Part shown: positions 10,031 through 50,606 of the stretch, piece after piece
Position numbering within the stretch: the first letter of the stretch is position 1
Layout: each line of letters starts with the position of its first letter
Made by a program: the position numbers and the translations under genes
Notes under the pieces: model-generated
Told to the model about the DNA's origin: nothing
Database searches by the model: none
Seen by the model: only the letters and a program-made list of their open reading frames with translations
Assembly: GCA_018992685.1 (NCBI GenBank)
Contig: JACVGT010000008.1
Location: 3,257-67,256, forward strand
Length of the DNA stretch: 64,000 nucleotides
Direction: 5' to 3'
From: Theionarchaea archaeon
Lineage (GTDB): Archaea; Methanobacteriota_B; Thermococci; Methanofastidiosales; SZ-28-30

Positions 10031-10166
10031 CGGACCTGGGGGGATTCGAACCCCCGACCTACAGCTTTCTTCGCCTCTGCTAACTCTCTTTAGATCATTG
10101 AATCATCGAGCGGATATTCATCATCGGCATAGGAGGCTGTTGCCCTATCCTCTAGGCTACAGGTCC
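10031..10166 (-). tRNA. tRNA-Arg(CCU): tRNA-Arg (anticodon CCU) with a ~63-nt intron in the anticodon loop (canonical 37/38 position)
   Basis: The reverse complement folds as a cloverleaf: acceptor GGACCUG/CAGGUCC, D-arm GCCU-AGAGGAUA-GGGC, anticodon stem ACAGC/GCUGU with loop CU-CCU-A[intron]A, T-arm GGGGG-UUCGAAU-CCCCC, discriminator G. No CCA is encoded. Confidence 0.8.
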
Positions 10167-37778: not shown

Positions 37779-37911
37779 TTTGAGGAGCAATTGAATAGAT
37801 TTTGTCCACCGTTCTCTTACCGTTACTGTGCAGCCTGAAATTGGGCTGAATAAGTGGTCTTCTCTAACCCGGTCAGCCAAAACCCTAATAGGCATCAGTG
37901 AAACCCACACC

Positions 37912-39003
37912 ATGAAGAGAATATTCGTTTCCATTACTCTGATTACTCTCGTTATCACGCTTGGCTGTGAAGAACAGCAGCCCACAGGGCAGCCAGTGAA
38001 CGTGACTTCCGGAAAGCTTGGAATATGGATAAATCCCAAAGAGGGCGACATGGACCATTACGATGAAGCCCTGGGCGTGGCTAGAGAGGCACAGGTTCAG
38101 CTTGCACATGTATACGTCCAATGGGGACTCGTAGAAAAGGCAAGAAACGAATATGACTGGAGGATACCCGACTACGTTCTGGGCAAGTTCGAAACGTATT
38201 GGTTTGAAGCGGTGGTGGTTATCCCCATCATTTTTACTACCAAGCTGGATGTCATGCCCTCAGACATTACGTTCACAGGATTTCAGGATCCAGAAATCGT
38301 CAGCAGGTTTGTCACGTTCACAGAACTTTTGCTGAAACGATATGGATCAACTGTGAAATACCTGATTATTGGAAATGAAGTAGACCTGTATTTATCGATG
38401 CACCCTGAGTACATCACTGATTTTAGGGCACTGGTGGAGGCTATGGCCAGAACAAGCGATGTCCCTGTAGGGACAGAACTTGCCATTCACTCAGTAATCA
38501 AGTCCAGGACCGAAGACATTGCCCGAGACATCATAGCTGGCGATATGATCTTCTATACCCTCTACCCCACTGGTGAAAACTTCTCTTTCAGCCGACGTGT
38601 GGAAGAGAAAGCCGGCTACTTTAATGCCATGTTTTCCCTAGCGGGGAACAGAAAAATAGCGGTGGTAGAAACTAGTTGGAGCTCCTCTCCCAGCCTGGAA
38701 AGCTCAGAAGAGACCCAAGCCCAGTACATCAAGGAACTCTTCCAGATTCTAACGCAGAACAGAGATAGAATTGAGTTTCTCATGTGGATTACCCTCTACG
38801 ACTCAATCCCACAGACCTGCGAAGAAAGTGCACGATTCTTTGTTGAAGGAGTGGATGATGAGAAGCTCACGGACACTGTGACAATGGGGAGGTTTGCAGA
38901 GTTCATATGCCACCTTGGGTTGAGGAGAGCTGACGGGACTCCAAAACCTGCCTGGTATCAGTGGTTGGCCGAAGTGGAAACATACTACGCTTCCCACCGG
39001 TAG
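37912..39003 (+). CDS. Secreted glycoside hydrolase, TIM-barrel clan GH-A-like (GH5/GH113-type). Probable start MKRIFVS; the track ORF starts at 37828.
   Basis: Signal peptide MKRIFVSITLITLVITLGC. 'YLIIGNEVDLY' (candidate acid/base Glu) and 'AVVETSWSS' (candidate nucleophile Glu). Confidence 0.55.
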   Translation: MKRIFVSITLITLVITLGCEEQQPTGQPVNVTSGKLGIWINPKEGDMDHYDEALGVAREAQVQLAHVYVQWGLVEKARNEYDWRIPDYVLGKFETYWFEAVVVIPIIFTTKLDVMPSDITFTGFQDPEIVSRFVTFTELLLKRYGSTVKYLIIGNEVDLYLSMHPEYITDFRALVEAMARTSDVPVGTELAIHSVIKSRTEDIARDIIAGDMIFYTLYPTGENFSFSRRVEEKAGYFNAMFSLAGNRKIAVVETSWSSSPSLESSEETQAQYIKELFQILTQNRDRIEFLMWITLYDSIPQTCEESARFFVEGVDDEKLTDTVTMGRFAEFICHLGLRRADGTPKPAWYQWLAEVETYYASHR

Positions 39004-40662: not shown

Positions 40663-42501
40663 CTACTCGCTTGTTGGAATGAGATTGGACACGCTTCTGA
40701 AGGAGGGGTTGGTTCTGGCAAGCCGCTCTCTCACCAGAGGGAACAATTCCAGGTTGGAGTGTGGAAAATACATCGCATCCACGAACTCCTGCTGAAAGTC
40801 CTTCCGAGATGAAAGCTCCACATAGTTGACAGATTCAGAAATTACCCGGGCCTTCTTCCTTTCTTTCACTGAAAGTAAACACAGCTTGGCCCCCACCCCC
40901 GCTGCGTTCCCTATACCCTTGATCTTCTCTGTAGGGATGTCAAAGATCAATCCGATGTCCTTTGCTGCCTCCTTGGGAATGTAGTTACCAAAGGCACCTG
41001 CCAATGCGATTTCTTCAACATCCTTCACTGTCACTCCGTACGTCTTCAGCAGAATCCTCTGGGCTGCAAAAATCGCTCCCTTGGCCAACTGGATCTCTCT
41101 CAGGTCTTTCTGAGTAACTGCAATTGCACCATTGATCACGAACGAATCGTTTTTCATCCTGGAGGCAAACCTCTCACTTGTCTGGAGCTTCCCAGCCGCA
41201 TTGATCAAACCATTTCTGAGCAGCTCTGCTGTTACACTGATCAACCCAGAGCCAGCAATTCCCTGGGGTGGCTCGTCATCAATCGTGTGGACTGTCACGT
41301 GGTCATTGATCTCCACCCGTTCGATAGCCCCGGGCGCTGCCCGCATCCCGTATCTGATATGGGTGCCTTCAAAAGCAGGGCCTGCAGCAGTAGAACAGGC
41401 CAAAACCCTGTCCTCCGTTCCCAGAACTACTTCACAGTTTGTTCCTATATCAATAAGGAGGCGCAAACGGTCATCAAGAGGATGCGCAATGATATCTGCC
41501 ACGGTATCTGCTCCCACAAATCCCGCTATCATTGGGAGCACATACATTCGCTTTCCATACAGTGTGGAAGGAACAGACAGGGGTTCTTTCACCACAGGAA
41601 TATAGGGGGAAACAGCCAGACTGCGGGGAGAAATACCCAGGAGCAGATGCTGCATGCAGGCATTTCCCGCCACTACCAGCTCATAGACTTCGCCTTTTCT
41701 TGTTCCAGCTGCATCTGCAAGTTCGGTGATAATGCCCATAAGGCAGTCTCGCAGTGATCTACGCAACCGGTCCAGATTCTCAGGATTCTGAGCAAAATTG
41801 ATCCTGGAAATGACGTCATCCCCATAACTGATCTGTGGATTCATCCTGGCCTTGACAGCGCATTGTTCTCCTGAATTTAAATCCATGAGGTAACCCACCA
41901 CAGTGGTCGTTCCGACATCAAAGGCCACTCCGAAACAACGATCACTGGTGTCACCTCTCTCGCATCCCACCAGTTCATCTCCCAGGAGAACCAGAGTGAC
42001 CTCGAATTTGGAATCCCTCATGGCCACGGGTATTTGGTTCAGAGCTTCCAGGCTGACAGACCTCATATCGTACTCCATCGAGTCCCTCAGCCTCTCTACA
42101 TCCGTCCTGTTGTCCTCCAGAGACGGTTCTGGGAGCTTGAGGAAGATCTTCTTGACATTGGGGGCTAATAGTATCTTTCTGGTGACCCCTTCCACCAGGA
42201 TACGCTGCTTTCTGGCCAGCGATTCCTCGGGTATGTAGACAGTAAGGTTTTTGTCAACAATAGCCTGACATGCCAATCTGAACCCTCGTCTCAACTCATT
42301 CTGGGAGAAGAATTCCATTTCCTCTTCAGTGTATCCTTCGTAGCCAGATACCTGCACCTTACACTTGCCACACAACCCTTTTCCTCCACATTCAGCGCGC
42401 AGCTGGATCCCTGCGGCGTGTGCGGCCTCCAGTACTGTGTGCCCTGGTTCCACCAGAAGGCGTTTTGCTGAGGGTTGAAAGGTTACCTGAAGGCTGACCA
42501 T
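40663..42501 (-). CDS. RACo-like ferredoxin-ASKHA ATPase (COG3894 / DUF4445; reductive activase family). Probable start MVSLQVTF; the track ORF extends to 42600.
   Basis: N-terminal plant-type 2Fe-2S ferredoxin 'CGGKGLCGKCKV...ACQ', followed by an ASKHA fold 'VAFDVGTTTVVGYL'. Confidence 0.75.
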   Translation of the reverse strand: MVSLQVTFQPSAKRLLVEPGHTVLEAAHAAGIQLRAECGGKGLCGKCKVQVSGYEGYTEEEMEFFSQNELRRGFRLACQAIVDKNLTVYIPEESLARKQRILVEGVTRKILLAPNVKKIFLKLPEPSLEDNRTDVERLRDSMEYDMRSVSLEALNQIPVAMRDSKFEVTLVLLGDELVGCERGDTSDRCFGVAFDVGTTTVVGYLMDLNSGEQCAVKARMNPQISYGDDVISRINFAQNPENLDRLRRSLRDCLMGIITELADAAGTRKGEVYELVVAGNACMQHLLLGISPRSLAVSPYIPVVKEPLSVPSTLYGKRMYVLPMIAGFVGADTVADIIAHPLDDRLRLLIDIGTNCEVVLGTEDRVLACSTAAGPAFEGTHIRYGMRAAPGAIERVEINDHVTVHTIDDEPPQGIAGSGLISVTAELLRNGLINAAGKLQTSERFASRMKNDSFVINGAIAVTQKDLREIQLAKGAIFAAQRILLKTYGVTVKDVEEIALAGAFGNYIPKEAAKDIGLIFDIPTEKIKGIGNAAGVGAKLCLLSVKERKKARVISESVNYVELSSRKDFQQEFVDAMYFPHSNLELFPLVRERLARTNPSFRSVSNLIPTSE

Positions 42502-42927
42502 GAAGGTACATGCTTGAGAACAGATAAAAAGCTTTGCTATCAAATGAAGGAGGTCTATTCTGTGATATGTCCAGCAGAGAGCGTACTTTACATATATCAA
42601 GGTTCAGAGGTACCTATCATCTTCATATACCCTGAGACCTCATACTCTACATATACCAAGGCCCCAAAGTGATATTCAGGTAGAATTTATGTCACATTAT
42701 GCTTCTCATGGAGCAGAAGGAGCATACATTCCTGTTAACAGTATTCGGTGAGCGGTGGATAATTCTCAAGGAATGTCTCCCTGGGACGCAAGGGTGAGGA
42801 CTCTGAATTCGGGAAGGTCCTGGGTTCTCTATCCACCTCACCCGGTCAACCACAGGTCTGGAGACTACTCCACGATGAGCTTCAAGCTGCAAAACCTTTA
42901 ATAAAGAGCTGCAACAAGAGAGAACAA

Positions 42928-45947: not shown

Positions 45948-46691
45948 TCAGACGAACCTGGTCTTCTCTATGCGCACTTTGTCTGGAAAGACTGTAGGTT
46001 CAGGAACCAGAAAGGGAATCAAAAGTTCAAAATCAGGCTGTTCAATAATCACGTCCACACTTCTACTGAACTCAATAAACTCCTTCTTGAATCCCTTCTC
46101 TGCCTCTTCAAGGCACTGCTTCAATCGCTGTGTGAGGTTTGACGACGGGTTAAACAAGATTGAGAATCCAACCTCTTGGAACATAGCCCAGTCATTCTCA
46201 TCATTTCCCACTGCCACACTTTCCTTCTTGGACGATTTCTGGGCCACAATCTTCCGCACGAGGTCTCCTTTCGACTGCAGGGTGATGAGTGTCTCTGAAA
46301 CAAGGGATCCCGTGATCTTTCCCTCTCGGATTTCGAGAGTGTTCCCATAGCACTCTGTAATTCCCAACCTCTCGGCAAAAGCGGCCGCTATCTGCTGCAC
46401 TCCATTGGTGATGAGAATTGGCTGATACTCTGCTCTCTTCAGCGCTTCAATGGTTCTTTCAGCTCCTTTCACTACAGGCAGAGTGTCTCCCACTTCCTTC
46501 AGTATTGATTCAGGTATATCGCAGAACAGGCTCACTCCTTTCCGAATTACCCATTCCAGTCCAATCTTCTTGTTTGTCGTCCCAGAAAATATCTTCTTGA
46601 GCTCAGCTTCTCTGCCCACCTTTTCTGCAAAGTGAAGAGCGTGTGCTGTGGGGGTGAGTACCCCATCCATATCAAAGAAAACAAGCTTCAT
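45948..46691 (-). CDS. HAD-superfamily phosphatase (phosphoserine-phosphatase SerB-like, subfamily IB)
   Basis: 'MKLVFFDMDGVL' motif I, 'ILITNG', and a 'GDGENDWAM'-type motif IV (VGNDENDWAM). 247 aa. Confidence 0.7.
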   Translation of the reverse strand: MKLVFFDMDGVLTPTAHALHFAEKVGREAELKKIFSGTTNKKIGLEWVIRKGVSLFCDIPESILKEVGDTLPVVKGAERTIEALKRAEYQPILITNGVQQIAAAFAERLGITECYGNTLEIREGKITGSLVSETLITLQSKGDLVRKIVAQKSSKKESVAVGNDENDWAMFQEVGFSILFNPSSNLTQRLKQCLEEAEKGFKKEFIEFSRSVDVIIEQPDFELLIPFLVPEPTVFPDKVRIEKTRFV

Positions 46692-46693
46692 GG

Positions 46694-46927
46694 TTACAAC
46701 TCGACAACTACCAATGTCATGGATTCAGTGACACCGTCAATCCTCTCAATACGGTGAAGGATGATGTCTGTCAACTGGGTCAACCCTTCCACAGCCAAGT
46801 AGATCACCATGTCGTACGGGCCTGTAATGGCCTCAGCCTCTATCACTTCATCCAGTTCTCTAACTCTCTCCAGTGCCGTCTTCAACATGCCAATACGCAC
46901 TGTCAGGAGGAGATACGCGTACAGCAT
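46694..46927 (-). CDS. Stand-alone RAM (Lrp/AsnC C-terminal ligand-binding) domain protein
   Basis: 77 aa. 'AEAITGPYDMVIYLAVEGLTQLTDIILHRIERIDGVTESMTLVVV' matches the RAM domain. Confidence 0.65.
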   Translation of the reverse strand: MLYAYLLLTVRIGMLKTALERVRELDEVIEAEAITGPYDMVIYLAVEGLTQLTDIILHRIERIDGVTESMTLVVVEL

Positions 46928-47224
46928 ACTCTTTCTTTCGTTAGGAGTTTATAAAGTCTTTGATTCGCCGCAAGTACTGGATTTTGTAGAAATGAAAGCA
47001 GTCTGCAGAACCACCACGACATCCCTGATGCACTCAGACCCGGATGAGCATGTCACTTCTGTTGAATTCGATTCTCGGTGGATAATTATAATGGGAGAGG
47101 GGCTCTGTGACGGGGAACTCATGGATTCCAAGAGTCTCATGGTGGAAAAGAGGATGTGATACAGGGAGTTGCTCTTCTTGACTGGAAGCACAAAGGTTTT
47201 TAACAGCTGATCGAAGTTTCTCTC

Positions 47225-47383
47225 ATGATGGTGGAAAAAGATTTATGTATGTACTGTGGCTGTTGCGCCAGCGTCTGTCCATTCAGCGGTGTTATTGTTA
47301 CAGATTATGATGTTCAGGTCACAGATACCTGTACAGACTGCAAGACCTGCGTCAGAGCTTGCCCCATGGGGGCGATCCAATGA
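47225..47383 (+). CDS. 2x[4Fe-4S] ferredoxin (52 aa), absent from the ORF track, translationally coupled to the geranylgeranyl reductase
   Basis: Hand translation gives MMVEKDLCMYCGCCASVCPFSGVIVTDYDVQVTDTCTDCKTCVRACPMGAIQ, i.e. two CxxCxxCxxxCP motifs. Its TGA overlaps the GGR ATG (MRECDVL...) as ATGA. Coordinates are ±1 nt. Confidence 0.65.
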   Translation: MMVEKDLCMYCGCCASVCPFSGVIVTDYDVQVTDTCTDCKTCVRACPMGAIQ

Positions 47384-48555
47384 GAGAATGTGATGTCCTT
47401 GTGGTGGGAGCAGGCCCGGCAGGAAGTATTGCAGCCCTAACTGCAGCCCCTCACTGCGACGTAGTGGTACTTGAGAAGAGAGCCCACATTGGGGTACCGA
47501 AGCAGTGTGCAGAAGGAACCAGTGAAGCGATTTTTGAGAAACTGGGCATACCACTGAGCCCCAAATGGGTATCCCGAAAGATCGAGTTTGCCCGGTTGAT
47601 ATCGCCTTCCAGAATCGCGGTTGATCTTAAAGATGAAAGAGTTAAACAACTCAAGTTTGGGTATGTTCTTGAAAGAAAGAAATTTGACAAAGCTCTTGCA
47701 GAGTTGGCGGCCAAGAAGGGAGCCGAGTTCTATCTGCGGACGCAGTATCAGGGACTGAAGCGAGAGGACAACCATGTTGTGATAAAAGCACGACAGTTTG
47801 ATAAGGACCTGACCTTCAAAGCTCGGATTGTCATCGCTGCAGATGGGTTAATGTCACGGGTTGCTAAAGATTTCGGCATTGATTCCACCACCAAGTTGAG
47901 ACATCTTGAGTCATGCTGCCAGTACGAGATGACAGGAATGGAACGAGAAAGCTGTATAGAACTGTATTTTGGAAATGAAATTGCTCCTAAAGGGTATGCA
48001 TGGGTATTTCCCAAAGAGGGTGATGTGGCAAATGTGGGAATTGGCATTCTGCCCACCAAAGCCGAATACCCGGCAAAATACTATCTGGATAAATTCGTCA
48101 GCTGGTTGGGGCTTTCTGGAACGGTTGTAGAAGTAAATGCAGGGGGAGTTCCTGTGGGTGGTCCACTGGATCAGACCTATGACGATAACCTACTCATAGC
48201 AGGAGACGCGGCACATATGGCAAATCCCATCTCAGGAGGAGGTATTCATACTGCCATGCTGTCGGGGAAGTTTGCAGGTGAGACTGCAACAAGAGCCCTG
48301 GAGTCGCAGAGTACTGATAAGGAGACTCTCTCTGAATATGAAACACGGTGGAAAGCAGACTTCGGCAGAGAACTTGACCTGTCACTGAAGGGACGGTTCA
48401 TCTTGGAGGAGTTCACTGATGAAGACTTTGACGCCACAGCGAAATGGATGAACGAGAAGGGGGTTGGTCAACTGGGTGCTCTGGACCTGGTAAAATTCGC
48501 TTTAAAGAGGCATCCCAAGTTTGCCATCAAGTTTGCGTCATTCCTTACTTCCTAA
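47359..48555 (+). CDS. Geranylgeranyl reductase (digeranylgeranylglycerophospholipid reductase family). Probable start is MRECDVL at ~47380.
   Basis: 'CDVLVVGAGPAGS' FAD motif. 'GDAAHMANPISGGGI' is typical of GGR/ChlP-family flavoproteins. 398 aa. Confidence 0.85.
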   Translation: MPHGGDPMRECDVLVVGAGPAGSIAALTAAPHCDVVVLEKRAHIGVPKQCAEGTSEAIFEKLGIPLSPKWVSRKIEFARLISPSRIAVDLKDERVKQLKFGYVLERKKFDKALAELAAKKGAEFYLRTQYQGLKREDNHVVIKARQFDKDLTFKARIVIAADGLMSRVAKDFGIDSTTKLRHLESCCQYEMTGMERESCIELYFGNEIAPKGYAWVFPKEGDVANVGIGILPTKAEYPAKYYLDKFVSWLGLSGTVVEVNAGGVPVGGPLDQTYDDNLLIAGDAAHMANPISGGGIHTAMLSGKFAGETATRALESQSTDKETLSEYETRWKADFGRELDLSLKGRFILEEFTDEDFDATAKWMNEKGVGQLGALDLVKFALKRHPKFAIKFASFLTS

Positions 48556-48892
48556 TTTCTTCTTTCTCATGCCCAGCATCAGGACTACGAGCTAATTCCA
48601 GACAGCTAAGATGTGGTACTAGTGCTTCATGAAAATGCGATAGCTGCAACACATCGAGGACTTAAAAAGGAAGGTTCTGGTACTGCAAATGGCACATGGA
48701 TACATGGAGCTAAACAATGTTACTGGGCGGAATATGCGATTATTGTGATGTGCACAAGAATGATCTCTGCAAGAATATGCTGCTATTGCCGCAGCTGCCT
48801 ACACCAGGGTGTTGCAACTTCATAATCGCTTCCTGAGAACTGGAACACGCTGTGAGGAAGACCAAAACCTCATAAAGGGATACTGACCACAG

Positions 48893-49732
48893 GTGACCAT
48901 GGATATCAAGACACTGCTCGAATTGACCCGTCCCATAAACGACATCATGTCCGGATTTGCTGTCTTCATTGCAGGAGCAATATCAGTGGGATGGCATATG
49001 CCACTCATGAGTCTGGCGGCTGCCTCCCTGGGTACTTTTTTTGCATCTGCAGGGGGAATGGTAATCAATGATTATTTTGACATTGACATAGACAGCGTCA
49101 ATCGTCCTCATAGACCCATACCTAGCAACAGAATAACTCGTCGGGGAGCATTACAATTCTCGCTGTTCTTATTTATGGGAGCTGGAGTATGCGTGCTGTT
49201 CACCAATGTGTGGTGCATCGTGGTGGGGCTCCCTGCGCTATTCTTGATCATTCTGTATTCCTGGAAGTTGAAGAGACGGCTGTTTGTGGGAAATCTGGCA
49301 GTAGCCCTGCTTTCTGCCCTGGCCCTACTGTATGGGGGGATTGCCGCGGGTAATATCCAGCTGGTATCCATCCTGGCCCTGATTGCCTTCTTTGCCACTG
49401 TTTCCAGAGAACTGGCAAAAGACATTGAGGATATTAAGGGCGATCGAATAGGAGGATCTCAATCTGTGCCTGTCCTCCTTGGAGAGAATCTGAGTGCCCA
49501 GATTGCAGGTGGGTTTCTTGCCCTGGCCATTTGTACATCACTGCTCCCATATGTGCTTGGGATCTTCGGCAACCTGTATCTGGTGCTGATAGTACCCGTA
49601 AACCTGGTCATGGGGTTTGTTATGGTGCAGATGTTCCTGAAGAACATTGAGAGAATACCAGTGTGGCAGAAAATGCTCAAAGTAGGAATGTACGTTACTC
49701 TGGGAATCTTCCTGGCAGCACGATTCATTTGA
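48893..49732 (+). CDS. UbiA-family prenyltransferase, digeranylgeranylglyceryl phosphate (DGGGP) synthase-like
   Basis: 'VINDYFDIDIDSVNRPHRPIPS' (first Asp-rich motif) and 'KDIEDIKGDR' (second). 8-9 TM helices. 279 aa. Confidence 0.8.
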   Translation: MTMDIKTLLELTRPINDIMSGFAVFIAGAISVGWHMPLMSLAAASLGTFFASAGGMVINDYFDIDIDSVNRPHRPIPSNRITRRGALQFSLFLFMGAGVCVLFTNVWCIVVGLPALFLIILYSWKLKRRLFVGNLAVALLSALALLYGGIAAGNIQLVSILALIAFFATVSRELAKDIEDIKGDRIGGSQSVPVLLGENLSAQIAGGFLALAICTSLLPYVLGIFGNLYLVLIVPVNLVMGFVMVQMFLKNIERIPVWQKMLKVGMYVTLGIFLAARFI

Positions 49733-50606
49733 GGGGTGGTACACTAAACTTGAGGGCCTTTTCATACATGTGAAAGGTTGCGGGTGTGTCTCCAATGTAT
49801 TCCCCTTCCACGTGAATCGAAAGAGGCTGATGGGAGTGCAGTTCCACATGACGCCCCCTGAAAGCTCCCACTTTTGGATTGTTCAGATGCGTTCCGCGGT
49901 ATAATGTAGGTAATTTCACCAGTGATTCAAGTCTGCTGAGATCTCCAATGACAATGATGTCGAATAACCCGTCATCTACTTCCGCATGTGGTGCGATATT
50001 CATGCCTGCTCCCACATATTTTCCGTTAGCTACATCCACAAACATGACCTTCTGATCAATGTGCACATCATCAACAGTCAGAGAAACGTCGATGCTCCGG
50101 TAATCTGCCAGATGCTTCAGAATTCCCATGACGTACGGGACAGTTCCCATTTTAGGTTTTGTGACCTGGCTAGTAGTCTTGGAAACCAACCCGTCGAATC
50201 CCATGCCCGCCACGCCAATGAAATACCTCTTTCCACCACTGAACGTCACGCATCCTGCATCCACGCTGCGAACCACATCCTGGGAGATGGAACGGGATGC
50301 AGCAATGCAATCAGACACCAGTCCTGCAGACTTCACAAAGTCGTTTCCTGTTCCTGTTGGAATGACTGAGAGTACAATATCCCTCCCCATGATACCATTG
50401 ATAATCTCGTTTAGAGTGCCGTCTCCCCCCACTGAAGCAATAACATCAAAGCCATTGTTCTCTGCAGCAATAGCAGTAGCGTGACCCCTCTCTTCCGTGT
50501 GCTGCACTTCAAAATCGTACTCCATGTCACGAAATACGCTCTTTATGGCAGGCCAGTACTTACAGGTCCTTCCTGCCACCGGATTCACTATAGCGAGAAT
50601 TCGCAC
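49725..50606 (-). CDS. Diacylglycerol-kinase-catalytic-domain lipid kinase (YegS/BmrU/LCB5 family)
   Basis: 'ILAIVNPVAGR...VIASVGGDGTLNEIINGI' is DAGK_cat. 293 aa. Convergent with the DGGGP synthase gene with an 8-nt overlap. Confidence 0.7.
   Translation of the reverse strand: MRILAIVNPVAGRTCKYWPAIKSVFRDMEYDFEVQHTEERGHATAIAAENNGFDVIASVGGDGTLNEIINGIMGRDIVLSVIPTGTGNDFVKSAGLVSDCIAASRSISQDVVRSVDAGCVTFSGGKRYFIGVAGMGFDGLVSKTTSQVTKPKMGTVPYVMGILKHLADYRSIDVSLTVDDVHIDQKVMFVDVANGKYVGAGMNIAPHAEVDDGLFDIIVIGDLSRLESLVKLPTLYRGTHLNNPKVGAFRGRHVELHSHQPLSIHVEGEYIGDTPATFHMYEKALKFSVPPLK

What the first reader, a model, noticed from the sequence alone, without database searches (positions are those of the whole stretch)
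47225..49732. Unannotated 52-aa di-cluster ferredoxin translationally coupled (ATGA) to geranylgeranyl reductase, followed by DGGGP synthase
A 2x[4Fe-4S] ferredoxin ORF (two CxxCxxCxxxCP motifs) lies just upstream of the GGR gene and is absent from the six-frame track because it is under 60 aa. Its stop codon overlaps the most plausible GGR start (MRECDVLVVGAGPAG).

In M. acetivorans, GGR needs a dedicated ferredoxin encoded by the adjacent gene as its electron donor. The same arrangement here, with the DGGGP synthase 340 bp downstream, defines a compact archaeol-saturation module. It also implies that the annotated GGR start (TTG at 47359) is probably wrong.
Basis: partly seen in the sequence, partly recalled or inferred. 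Interest (0 to 1): 0.55.

Follow-up and report, generated by a model that had tools for sequence, protein, structure and literature searches.

The report
Ferredoxin–geranylgeranyl reductase operon, already annotated
A real 52-residue iron-sulfur ferredoxin gene sits directly in front of, and overlaps by four bases, the enzyme that saturates archaeal membrane lipids, but this gene pair is widespread in archaea, has been studied experimentally and is already annotated in GenBank for this very sequence, so it is ordinary.

Summary
ORF 47225-47383 (+) encodes a 52-aa protein with two CxxCxxCxxxCP motifs. Its TGA overlaps the ATG at 47380 of a geranylgeranyl reductase (GGR, 391 aa). A DGGGP-synthase-like UbiA gene follows at 48899.

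The ORF is a real gene: dN/dS is 0.06 against the nearest relative. The GGR start is the overlapping ATG. It is ATG or GTG in all relatives, the upstream TTG is CTG in two of them, and a strong Shine-Dalgarno-like site lies 8 nt upstream.

GenBank already holds exactly this 52-aa protein (MBU7015191.1, Theionarchaea archaeon) and the 391-aa GGR (MBU7015192.1).

The arrangement is not new. 72 of 80 GGR loci from many archaeal phyla carry the same small ferredoxin immediately upstream. One is a natural fusion. The pair is characterised in Thermococcus kodakarensis and Methanosarcina acetivorans.

The "module" is only partly supported. UbiA adjacency is confined to this lineage, and UbiA appears to have its own promoter.

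Verdict: an orthologue of a known operon, of low interest.

The parts
47192..47205 (+). Conserved BRE/TATA-like block AAAGGTTTTTAACA, 19 nt upstream of the ferredoxin ATG. It is the inferred promoter of a leaderless fd-GGR transcript.
   Evidence: The block is perfectly conserved, at identical spacing from the ATG, in the window, L001, L003 and L087. The rest of the intergenic region is diverged and contains indels. The TATA centre lies about 25 nt before the ATG. The ferredoxin ATG has no Shine-Dalgarno-like site (-6.5 kcal/mol, background level). Transcription itself was not tested.
47225..47383 (+). Ferredoxin gene: 52 aa with two CxxCxxCxxxCP motifs (2x[4Fe-4S] type). It is the inferred electron donor for GGR.
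   Evidence: Pfam Fer4 2.8e-12. (PDB 1clf clostridial 2[4Fe-4S] ferredoxin, 2.8e-7). (dN/dS 0.06). (identical to NCBI MBU7015191.1, '4Fe-4S binding protein [Theionarchaea archaeon]'). (65 bits end-to-end against a profile of 72 GGR-linked ferredoxins).
47367..47377 (+). Shine-Dalgarno-like GGGGGCGATCC inside the 3' end of the ferredoxin gene. Its GGGGG core ends 8 nt before the GGR ATG.
   Evidence: Duplex energy with the assumed 16S 3' end GGAUCACCUCCU is -13.6 kcal/mol, in the top 0.6% of window positions. The value for the TTG at 47359 is -2.7. L001 and L003 have GGAGGCGATCC at the same place. The 16S rRNA of this organism is not in the window, so the anti-SD sequence is assumed from general knowledge.
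47380..48555 (+). Geranylgeranyl reductase (digeranylgeranylglycerophospholipid reductase family), 391 aa. The start ATG overlaps the ferredoxin stop (ATGA).
   Evidence: TIGR02032 232 bits, above cut-off; GGR_cat. (PDB 3oz2, T. acidophilum DGGGPL reductase, 4.4e-54 over the full length). (invariant GxGxxG, C43, G205-Y-x-W-x-F-P211, GDA, GGG). Start evidence.
48862..48880 (+). Conserved block CAAAACCTCATAAAGGGA, 18 nt upstream of the UbiA ATG. It is the inferred separate promoter.
   Evidence: This is the only conserved stretch in a spacer that is 78 nt in L001, 138 nt in L087 and 340 nt here. Its spacing to the ATG is the same in every case. Its function was not tested.
48899..49732 (+). UbiA-family prenyltransferase, most likely DGGGP synthase (277 aa from ATG 48899; an alternative GTG lies at 48893).
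   Evidence: Pfam UbiA 3.9e-44. The best NCBIfam match is PRK12882, the DGGGP synthase equivalog, at 244 bits, below its cut-off of 296. The best PDB match is 6m31, DGGGP synthase, at 2.9e-38 over the full length. The ATG aligns with the start in L001 and L087.

Best explanation
The region is the Theionarchaea orthologue of the known archaeal ferredoxin-GGR operon.

Mechanism proposed:
- A leaderless transcript probably starts at or next to ATG 47225.
- It encodes first a 52-aa 2x[4Fe-4S]-type ferredoxin and then the FAD enzyme geranylgeranyl reductase.
- GGR translation starts at ATG 47380, which overlaps the ferredoxin stop (ATGA). A Shine-Dalgarno-like site lies 8 nt upstream, so the two proteins are made together. 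This could be by termination-reinitiation, by internal initiation, or by both.
- The ferredoxin is reduced by the cell's 2-oxoacid:ferredoxin oxidoreductases or similar enzymes. It then delivers low-potential electrons to the FAD of GGR.
- GGR hydrogenates the double bonds of the geranylgeranyl chains of DGGGP or its derivatives, giving saturated archaeol-type lipids.
- The neighbouring UbiA gene is the DGGGP synthase that makes the GGR substrate. It is a lineage-specific neighbour and is probably transcribed from its own promoter.

Shown here: gene reality, start codon, family assignments and conservation of the pair.

Inferred: transcription start, coupling mechanism, electron transfer and lipid substrate.
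For: Gene reality:
- The two Cys motifs are present.
- dN/dS is 0.06.
- The exact protein is in NCBI.

GGR start at 47380:
- Homologue N-termini begin 3-6 residues before the DVLVVGAGPAGS strand.
- The overlapping codon is ATG in the window and L001-L006, and GTG in L087.
- The upstream TTG is CTG in L087 and L003.
- The Shine-Dalgarno-like site scores -13.6 kcal/mol, top 0.6% of window positions.
- NCBI's own call is 391 aa.

Conserved pairing:
- 72 of 80 GTDB species-representative GGR loci have a co-oriented two-motif ferredoxin ORF of about 52-70 aa directly upstream. They come from Methanobacteriales, Hadarchaeota, Methanocellales, Archaeoglobus, Thermoplasmata, Methanomassiliicoccales, Altiarchaeota, Micrarchaeota and Methanoperedens.
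- In 61 of 67 scorable loci the genes overlap or lie within 25 nt. Eleven have the same 4-nt overlap.
- L061 is a natural ferredoxin-GGR fusion protein.

Experimental precedent:
- T. kodakarensis Fd-2 (TK1087; 7.2 kDa, 8 Cys) lies immediately upstream of GGR (TK1088). It is co-transcribed with GGR, co-purifies with it and is essential (PMC6401487).
- M. acetivorans GGR saturates lipids in E. coli only when co-expressed with the adjacent ferredoxin (PMC4244643; PMC8941075; PMC10821996).
- Conservation of the synteny in Euryarchaeota has been noted in a review (PMC9385802).

Family assignments.

Promoter blocks.
Against: - Nothing here demonstrates transcription, translation, cluster content or electron transfer.
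- The ferredoxin is too short for sequence-based orthology.
- Sequences of TK1087 and MA1485 were not available for direct comparison.
- The GGR fails the equivalog-level NCBIfam models (212 bits against a cut-off of 780 for NF041160). Its exact substrate is therefore inferred from family and context.
- The AlphaFold model of the ferredoxin was of low confidence (pLDDT 55).
- 8 of 80 loci lack the upstream ferredoxin, so the partnership is not universal.
- The anti-SD sequence is assumed, not read from this genome.
Confidence: 0.85

Rival explanations
1. The small ferredoxin is a general-purpose or other-pathway electron carrier. Its position next to GGR reflects only co-expression or genomic happenstance, and GGR takes electrons from another donor such as NAD(P)H or F420H2.
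For: - T. acidophilum GGR, the closest solved structure (3oz2), is reported to work with NADPH in vitro (PMC10821996).
- T. kodakarensis Fd-2 also interacts with other oxidoreductases.
- The ferredoxin sequence is barely distinguishable from generic clostridial ferredoxins.
- No other two-cluster ferredoxin ORF exists in the 64-kb window, but the rest of the genome is unseen.
Against: - The tight co-oriented pairing occurs in 72 of 80 loci across many phyla, mostly overlapping or within 25 nt.
- A natural fusion protein exists.
- There is genetic and interaction evidence in two model archaea.
Confidence: 0.08
2. The reductase is a GGR paralogue acting on another polyprenyl substrate (dolichol/polyprenol, quinone side chain or free isoprenoid) rather than on membrane diether lipids. 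The ferredoxin serves that reaction.
For: - Archaea often have several GGR paralogues, some with adjacent ferredoxin-like genes (PMC10821996).
- Equivalog-level models for DGGGPL reductase are not reached.
- Only 64 kb of the genome is visible, so another GGR may exist elsewhere.
Against: - The best full-length matches are bona fide lipid GGRs (3oz2 at 4.4e-54, SaGGR 3atq).
- All GGR motifs, including the catalytic Cys and PxxYxWxFP, are present.
- In this lineage the gene sits next to a DGGGP-synthase-like gene.
- IMG names the orthologues digeranylgeranylglycerophospholipid reductase.
Confidence: 0.06
3. The 52-aa ORF is spurious. GGR starts at the upstream TTG (47359) or further upstream, as in the 408-aa gene calls seen for relatives.
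For: - ORF listing reports TTG 47359 as the first start after a stop.
- Logan and IMG gene callers extend the orthologue to 408 aa. On L087 and L088 they skip the ferredoxin.
Against: - dN/dS in the ferredoxin frame is 0.06 and all 8 Cys are conserved.
- The TTG is CTG in L087 and L003.
- There is no Shine-Dalgarno-like site before the TTG (-2.7 kcal/mol).
- The N-terminal extension has no counterpart in homologues.
- The 398-aa form is absent from 15 billion proteins, whereas the 52-aa and 391-aa forms are present.
Confidence: 0.01

Closest known systems
Thermococcus kodakarensis Fd-2 (TK1087) - GGR (TK1088) operon
   Same: - A small ferredoxin with eight cysteines lies immediately upstream of, and co-oriented with, GGR.
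- In T. kodakarensis the two are co-transcribed. Fd-2 co-purifies with GGR and is essential (PMC6401487).
- Theionarchaea and Methanofastidiosia are close relatives of Thermococci. L008, a 47%-identical GGR locus with the same ferredoxin, is labelled Thermococci.
   Different: - In T. kodakarensis the ferredoxin is the middle gene of a three-gene operon that begins with the redox regulator SurR. Here it is the first gene, behind its own TATA-like element, and the upstream neighbour is a divergently transcribed stand-alone RAM-domain protein.
- Fd-2 is 7.2 kDa, against about 5.6 kDa (52 aa) here.
- Direct sequence comparison was not possible.
Methanosarcina acetivorans ferredoxin MA1485 - GGR MA1484
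   Same: An adjacent ferredoxin gene is required for GGR-dependent full saturation of archaeal lipids in E. coli (Isobe et al. 2014, as cited in PMC4244643, PMC8941075 and PMC10821996). Methanoperedens loci (L081-L083) show the same ATGA overlap.
   Different: - In M. acetivorans the tetraether synthase gene (MA1486) is the next neighbour. Here the neighbour is a DGGGP-synthase-like gene.
- Reviews disagree on whether the ferredoxin is upstream or downstream of GGR in M. acetivorans.
- The primary paper could not be read.
Clostridial-type 2x[4Fe-4S] ferredoxins (e.g. PDB 1clf, 1fdn)
   Same: About 55 aa, with two CxxCxxCxxxCP motifs. Sequence matches are 2.8e-7 (1clf) and 2.3e-4 (1fdn).
   Different: Those are general metabolic electron carriers, not linked to a specific partner gene. 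Here the gene is locked to GGR by position and, in one lineage, by fusion.
Thermoplasma acidophilum digeranylgeranylglycerophospholipid reductase (PDB 3oz2)
   Same: It is the closest solved structure to the GGR: 4.4e-54 over residues 2-381, with the same FAD and catalytic motifs. A 4Fe-4S protein gene lies in its locus (PMC10821996).
   Different: TaGGR is reported to use NADPH in vitro. The equivalog model built for Thermoplasmatales is not reached (212 bits against 780).

Membership tests
2x[4Fe-4S] (clostridial-type) ferredoxin | Two CxxCxxCxxxCP cluster-binding motifs in a polypeptide of about 55 residues | tested here: met
   C8-x2-C11-x2-C14-x3-C18-P19 and C36-x2-C39-x2-C42-x3-C46-P47 in 52 aa. 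Pfam Fer4 scores 46.3 bits against a cut-off of 21.1. All 8 Cys are invariant in relatives.
2x[4Fe-4S] (clostridial-type) ferredoxin | (beta-alpha-beta)2 ferredoxin fold | tested here: inconclusive
   The AlphaFold2 model from a 5-sequence alignment has mean pLDDT 55 and pTM 0.31. That is too poor for a fold search. Sequence similarity to 1clf (2.8e-7) and 1fdn is the only support.
2x[4Fe-4S] (clostridial-type) ferredoxin | Actually binds two [4Fe-4S] clusters at low potential | not testable with these tools
   Needs purified protein, with UV-vis or EPR spectroscopy and redox titration.
GGR-partner ferredoxin (TK1087 / MA1485 type) | Gene immediately adjacent to and co-oriented with GGR | tested here: met
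   The 4-nt ATGA overlap is seen in the sequence. The same arrangement occurs in 72 of 80 diverse archaeal GGR loci and in close relatives.
GGR-partner ferredoxin (TK1087 / MA1485 type) | Sequence orthology to the characterised partner ferredoxins | tested here: inconclusive
A profile of 72 GGR-linked ferredoxins gives 65 bits end-to-end, but a clostridial ferredoxin scores 52 bits. The profile therefore discriminates poorly.
GGR-partner ferredoxin (TK1087 / MA1485 type) | Co-transcription with GGR, physical interaction with it and electron transfer to it | not testable with these tools
   Indirect support only: a conserved promoter-like block before the ferredoxin and none between the genes, and the natural fusion in L061.
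Geranylgeranyl reductase family (TIGR02032; archaeal DGGGPL reductase) | Family HMM above curated cut-off, plus the GGR catalytic domain | tested here: met
   TIGR02032 scores 232.2 bits against a cut-off of 158.8. Pfam GGR_cat scores 77 bits against 27.
Geranylgeranyl reductase family (TIGR02032; archaeal DGGGPL reductase) | FAD-binding GxGxxG, catalytic Cys, PxxYxWxFP cavity motif, and GD / GGG flavin-contact motifs | tested here: met
   VGAGPAGS (G10-S16), C43 in PKQCAEG, PKGYAWVFP (203-211), G275-D276-A277 and G286-G288 are all present. All are invariant in an 18-sequence alignment. The motif definitions come from PMC10821996.
Geranylgeranyl reductase family (TIGR02032; archaeal DGGGPL reductase) | Equivalog-level match to a characterised DGGGPL reductase model | tested here: not met
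   NF041160 scores 211.9 bits against a cut-off of 780. NF041080 scores 155.7 against 580. These models are lineage-specific (Thermoplasmatales and others). The lipid substrate is therefore inferred, not established.
DGGGP synthase (UbiA superfamily) | UbiA fold with NDxxDxxxD and a second Asp-rich motif | tested here: met
   Pfam UbiA scores 151 bits against a cut-off of 34. NDYFDIDID and DIEDIKGD are visible in the translation.
DGGGP synthase (UbiA superfamily) | Equivalog-level match to DGGGP synthase | tested here: inconclusive
   The best NCBIfam model is the DGGGP synthase equivalog PRK12882, but at 244 bits against a cut-off of 296. The best and only strong PDB match is DGGGP synthase 6m31, at 2.9e-38 over residues 3-273.

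The most novel reading that the evidence does not exclude
The most novel reading not excluded concerns the block conserved in the Theionarchaea-like relatives examined here. That block is: stand-alone RAM-domain protein + HAD phosphatase (divergent), ferredoxin-GGR, DGGGP synthase, and a convergent YegS/DAGK-type lipid kinase. It could be a dedicated lipid-remodelling or salvage island. In that reading, the lipid kinase re-phosphorylates dephosphorylated diether lipids (DGGGOH or archaeol), an activity with no assigned archaeal enzyme. The RAM-domain protein would sense a metabolite to tune expression. The evidence here is only conserved synteny in three related genome lineages.
Probability: 0.07. 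Interest if true: 0.5.

Novelty: new member of a known kind. Interest (0 to 1): 0.12.

Why it matters
It matters little for discovery. It confirms that Theionarchaea use the same ferredoxin-dependent lipid saturation unit already characterised in Thermococcus and Methanosarcina.

The practical lessons concern annotation:
- A 60-aa ORF cutoff hides a conserved, functionally important 52-aa gene.
- Some automatic gene callers extend GGR to 408 aa over the 3' end of the ferredoxin gene in relatives with a GTG start, and on L087 and L088 they drop the ferredoxin altogether.
- Public names for both proteins are generic ("4Fe-4S binding protein", "NAD(P)/FAD-dependent oxidoreductase") and could be made specific.

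The survey here (72 of 80 species-level loci, mostly overlapping or within 25 nt, plus one natural fusion) puts numbers on a synteny that reviews had described only qualitatively.

Tried and rejected
1. AlphaFold2 of the ferredoxin with a 5-sequence alignment gave pLDDT 55. This is unusable, so no fold search was run.

2. The ~260 nt of extra spacer between GGR and UbiA (about 48575-48855) was examined as a possible mobile element, small RNA or small gene:
- There is no copy elsewhere in the window or in 89 loci.
- Within the region there are only short repeats (a three-copy 16-nt direct repeat and one 11-nt inverted pair), nothing element-like.
- There is no Rfam hit even at E<=1.
- The fold z-score is -0.97.
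- ORFs in it (70 aa, 39 aa) are absent from relatives.
It was rejected as a feature.

3. Reading Isobe et al. 2014 directly failed because the paper is not held. I relied on four citing papers instead.

4. The first ferredoxin protein search returned only 4 hits because of the word index. The exact-sequence lookup was far more informative.

5. I tested whether a profile of GGR-linked ferredoxins separates them from generic ferredoxins. It gives only a 13-bit margin, so it is not a usable membership test.

6. I looked for a second GGR paralogue or another ferredoxin in the window. The other 391-aa ORF (37828-39003) has no Pfam hit. No other CxxCxxCxxxC ORF of 40 aa or more exists in the window.

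7. The sigma-70 promoter and terminator scanner was not used, because the organism is an archaeon.
Full report
**1. What is in the sequence**

The + strand ORF 47225-47383 encodes MMVEKDLCMYCGCCASVCPFSGVIVTDYDVQVTDTCTDCKTCVRACPMGAIQ, 52 aa. It has two canonical CxxCxxCxxxCP motifs. It matches Pfam Fer4 (46.3 bits, cut-off 21.1) and a series of dicluster models.

Among solved structures, the best single-domain match is the 55-aa Clostridium 2[4Fe-4S] ferredoxin 1clf, at 2.8e-7. Repeats of polyferredoxins score higher.

The TGA stop (47381-47383) overlaps ATG 47380 (ATGA). That ATG opens a 391-aa ORF ending at 48555.
- It passes the geranylgeranyl reductase family model TIGR02032 (232 bits, cut-off 158.8).
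- It contains the Pfam GGR catalytic domain.
- It matches the Thermoplasma acidophilum digeranylgeranylglycerophospholipid reductase structure 3oz2 over its full length, at 4.4e-54.
- In an 18-sequence alignment, the GxGxxG, the catalytic Cys (C43), G205-Y-x-W-x-F-P211, GDA and GGG are all invariant.

A UbiA-family ORF follows at 48893/48899-49732.
- Its best NCBIfam model is the DGGGP synthase equivalog PRK12882, at 244 bits. That is below the cut-off of 296.
- Its only strong PDB match is DGGGP synthase 6m31, at 2.9e-38 over the full length.

**2. The small ORF is a real gene**

Relatives keep a 52-aa ORF with all eight cysteines at 69-90% identity.
- Against the closest relative (L087) there are 14 synonymous and 5 non-synonymous differences, giving dN/dS of 0.06.
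- Against L001, synonymous sites are saturated while pN is 0.16.
- The two alternative frames carry stops.

**3. The GGR start**

Five lines of evidence agree on ATG 47380.
- (a) Homologues from many lineages begin 3-6 residues before the first Rossmann strand.
- (b) The codon overlapping the ferredoxin stop is ATG in the window and in L001-L006, and GTG in L087. The upstream TTG (47359) is CTG in both L087 and L003.
- (c) GGGGGCGATCC (GGAGGCGATCC in L001 and L003) lies upstream, with its GGGGG core ending 8 nt before the ATG. Its duplex energy with the conserved 16S 3' end is -13.6 kcal/mol, in the top 0.6% of window positions. The value is -2.7 for the TTG. The anti-SD sequence is assumed from general knowledge, because the rRNA is not in the window.
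- (d) The same tight junction is common elsewhere (section 5).
- (e) NCBI's annotation uses this start (section 4).

**4. "Unannotated" and "annotated TTG start" are artefacts**

An exact-sequence look-up gave these results.
- The 52-aa protein is NCBI MBU7015191.1 / MBU7036986.1, "4Fe-4S binding protein [Theionarchaea archaeon]".
- The 391-aa GGR is the next accession, MBU7015192.1 / MBU7036987.1.
- The 398-aa TTG form does not exist among about 15 billion proteins.

The TTG start is simply the first start codon that a mechanical ORF lister reports.

There is a small real annotation problem in relatives whose GGR start is GTG. IMG and Logan gene callers extend GGR to 408 aa over the ferredoxin's 3' end. 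On L087 and L088 they omit the ferredoxin.

The window therefore comes from a Theionarchaea (Methanofastidiosia-related) MAG.

**5. The pair is widespread**

I fetched 80 GGR loci from GTDB species representatives. The lineages were Methanobacteriales, Hadarchaeota, Methanocellales, Archaeoglobus, Thermoplasmata, Methanomassiliicoccales, Altiarchaeota, Micrarchaeota, Methanoperedens and others.

- 72 of 80 have a co-oriented ORF with two CxxCxxCxxxC motifs directly upstream of GGR.
- Among 67 scorable junctions, 24 overlap, 37 have gaps of 0-25 nt and only 6 are wider. Eleven of the overlaps have the same 4-nt NTGA overlap.
- One locus (L061) encodes a single 484-487-aa polypeptide with the ferredoxin domain fused to GGR through a linker of about 15 residues. 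This is a Rosetta-stone indication of a direct partnership.
- The consensus of the 72 ferredoxins is IKVDKEKCLYCGACVGVCPENAIELKETKIEVDEEKCKKCGICVKVCPVGALE. The window protein fits it end-to-end at 65 bits.

**6. What is known**

- In T. kodakarensis, Fd-2 (TK1087; 7.2 kDa, eight Cys) lies immediately upstream of GGR (TK1088). It is co-transcribed with GGR and is the only ferredoxin that co-purifies with it. It cannot be deleted (PMC6401487).
- In M. acetivorans, the ferredoxin adjacent to GGR is needed for full lipid saturation in E. coli (Isobe et al. 2014, via PMC4244643, PMC8941075 and PMC10821996).
- A 2024 review lists 4Fe-4S genes next to GGR in A. fulgidus and T. acidophilum.

**7. Transcription units (inferred)**

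Between the divergently transcribed RAM-domain gene (46694-46927, - strand) and the ferredoxin, the DNA is poorly conserved among relatives except for two blocks.
- TTTATAAA (46948-46955) lies about 25 nt from the minus-strand ATG.
- AAAGGTTTTTAACA (47192-47205) lies exactly 19 nt before the ferredoxin ATG in the window, L001, L003 and L087.

With no Shine-Dalgarno-like site before the ferredoxin ATG, this fits an archaeal BRE/TATA promoter giving a leaderless fd-GGR mRNA.

The GGR-UbiA spacer is 78 nt in L001, 138 nt in L087 and 340 nt here. Its only conserved part is CAAAACCTCATAAAGGGA (48862-48880), always 18 nt before the UbiA ATG at 48899. UbiA therefore probably has its own promoter, although read-through is not excluded.

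UbiA lies directly after GGR only in the Theionarchaea-like loci (window, L001-L006, L087-L088). Elsewhere it appears within 4 kb in only 2 of the 80 other loci (L061 and L062). The "compact module" is thus a lineage-specific juxtaposition of two pathway genes, not a conserved operon.

**8. Dead ends**

- The extra ~260 nt of spacer has no repeats, no Rfam match and no significant structure. Its small ORFs are absent from relatives.
- The AlphaFold model of the ferredoxin was too uncertain to use.

**9. Verdict**

The functional interpretation is very probably correct but not new. The annotation claims are artefacts. The three-gene module is overstated.

Novelty: a new member of a known kind. 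Interest is low, at 0.12.

Noticed in passing
window 10031-10166 (-): Rfam tRNA hit (56.5 bits) spanning 136 nt that ARAGORN did not report. It is probably an intron-containing archaeal tRNA.
   Followed up: no
window 49725-50606 (-): A YegS/DAGK-type lipid kinase gene (TIGR00147 164 bits, above cut-off) is convergent with the DGGGP-synthase-like gene and overlaps its 3' end by 8 nt. The neighbourhood HAD - RAM <-> Fd - GGR - UbiA <- kinase is kept in L001 and L087. A role in diether-lipid phosphorylation or salvage is conceivable but untested.
   Followed up: partly
window 46694-46927 (-) and 45948-46691 (-): A 77-aa stand-alone AsnC/Lrp ligand-binding (RAM) domain protein without an HTH, followed by a SerB-like HAD phosphatase. 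Both are transcribed divergently from the ferredoxin gene. A conserved TTTATAAA lies at 46948-46955, about 25 nt from the ATG.
   Followed up: partly
window 48575-48855: About 260 nt of non-coding DNA between GGR and UbiA that is absent from L001, L003 and L087. It has no copy elsewhere, no Rfam hit and a fold z-score of -0.97. Its origin is unexplained.
   Followed up: yes
L061 3743-5197 (+); L079 3777-5158 (+): Two MAGs labelled bacterial carry the archaeal-type unit. L061 (Eubacteriales) has a ferredoxin-GGR fusion protein of 484-487 aa, next to an ORF that I read, from its translation alone, as a membrane-fusion/efflux adaptor-like protein. L079 (Cloacimonadota) has a separate ferredoxin plus GGR. 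This could be horizontal transfer or mis-binning.
   Followed up: partly
L087 4897-6227; L088 3500-4726: Automatic gene calls in the closest relatives extend GGR to 408 aa from an upstream ATG and omit the intact 52-aa ferredoxin ORF. There the true GGR start appears to be GTG, overlapping the ferredoxin stop as GTGA.
   Followed up: yes
window 40663-42600 (-): A RACo-type reductive activator of corrinoid proteins, with a 2Fe-2S domain plus the RACo linker, middle and C-terminal domains. It hints at corrinoid-dependent methyl-transfer metabolism in this organism.
   Followed up: no
L036, L055, L056, L060, L065, L068, L069, L076: Eight of the 80 GGR loci lack the upstream two-cluster ferredoxin. 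They are from Aenigmatarchaeota, a Methanosarcinales MAG, Altiarchaeota, a Methanobacteriaceae MAG (L060), two Methanosphaera MAGs (L068, L076), ANME-1/Methanophagales and one unclassified archaeon. L065 keeps an ORF with only one motif. Where these GGRs get electrons is open.
   Followed up: no
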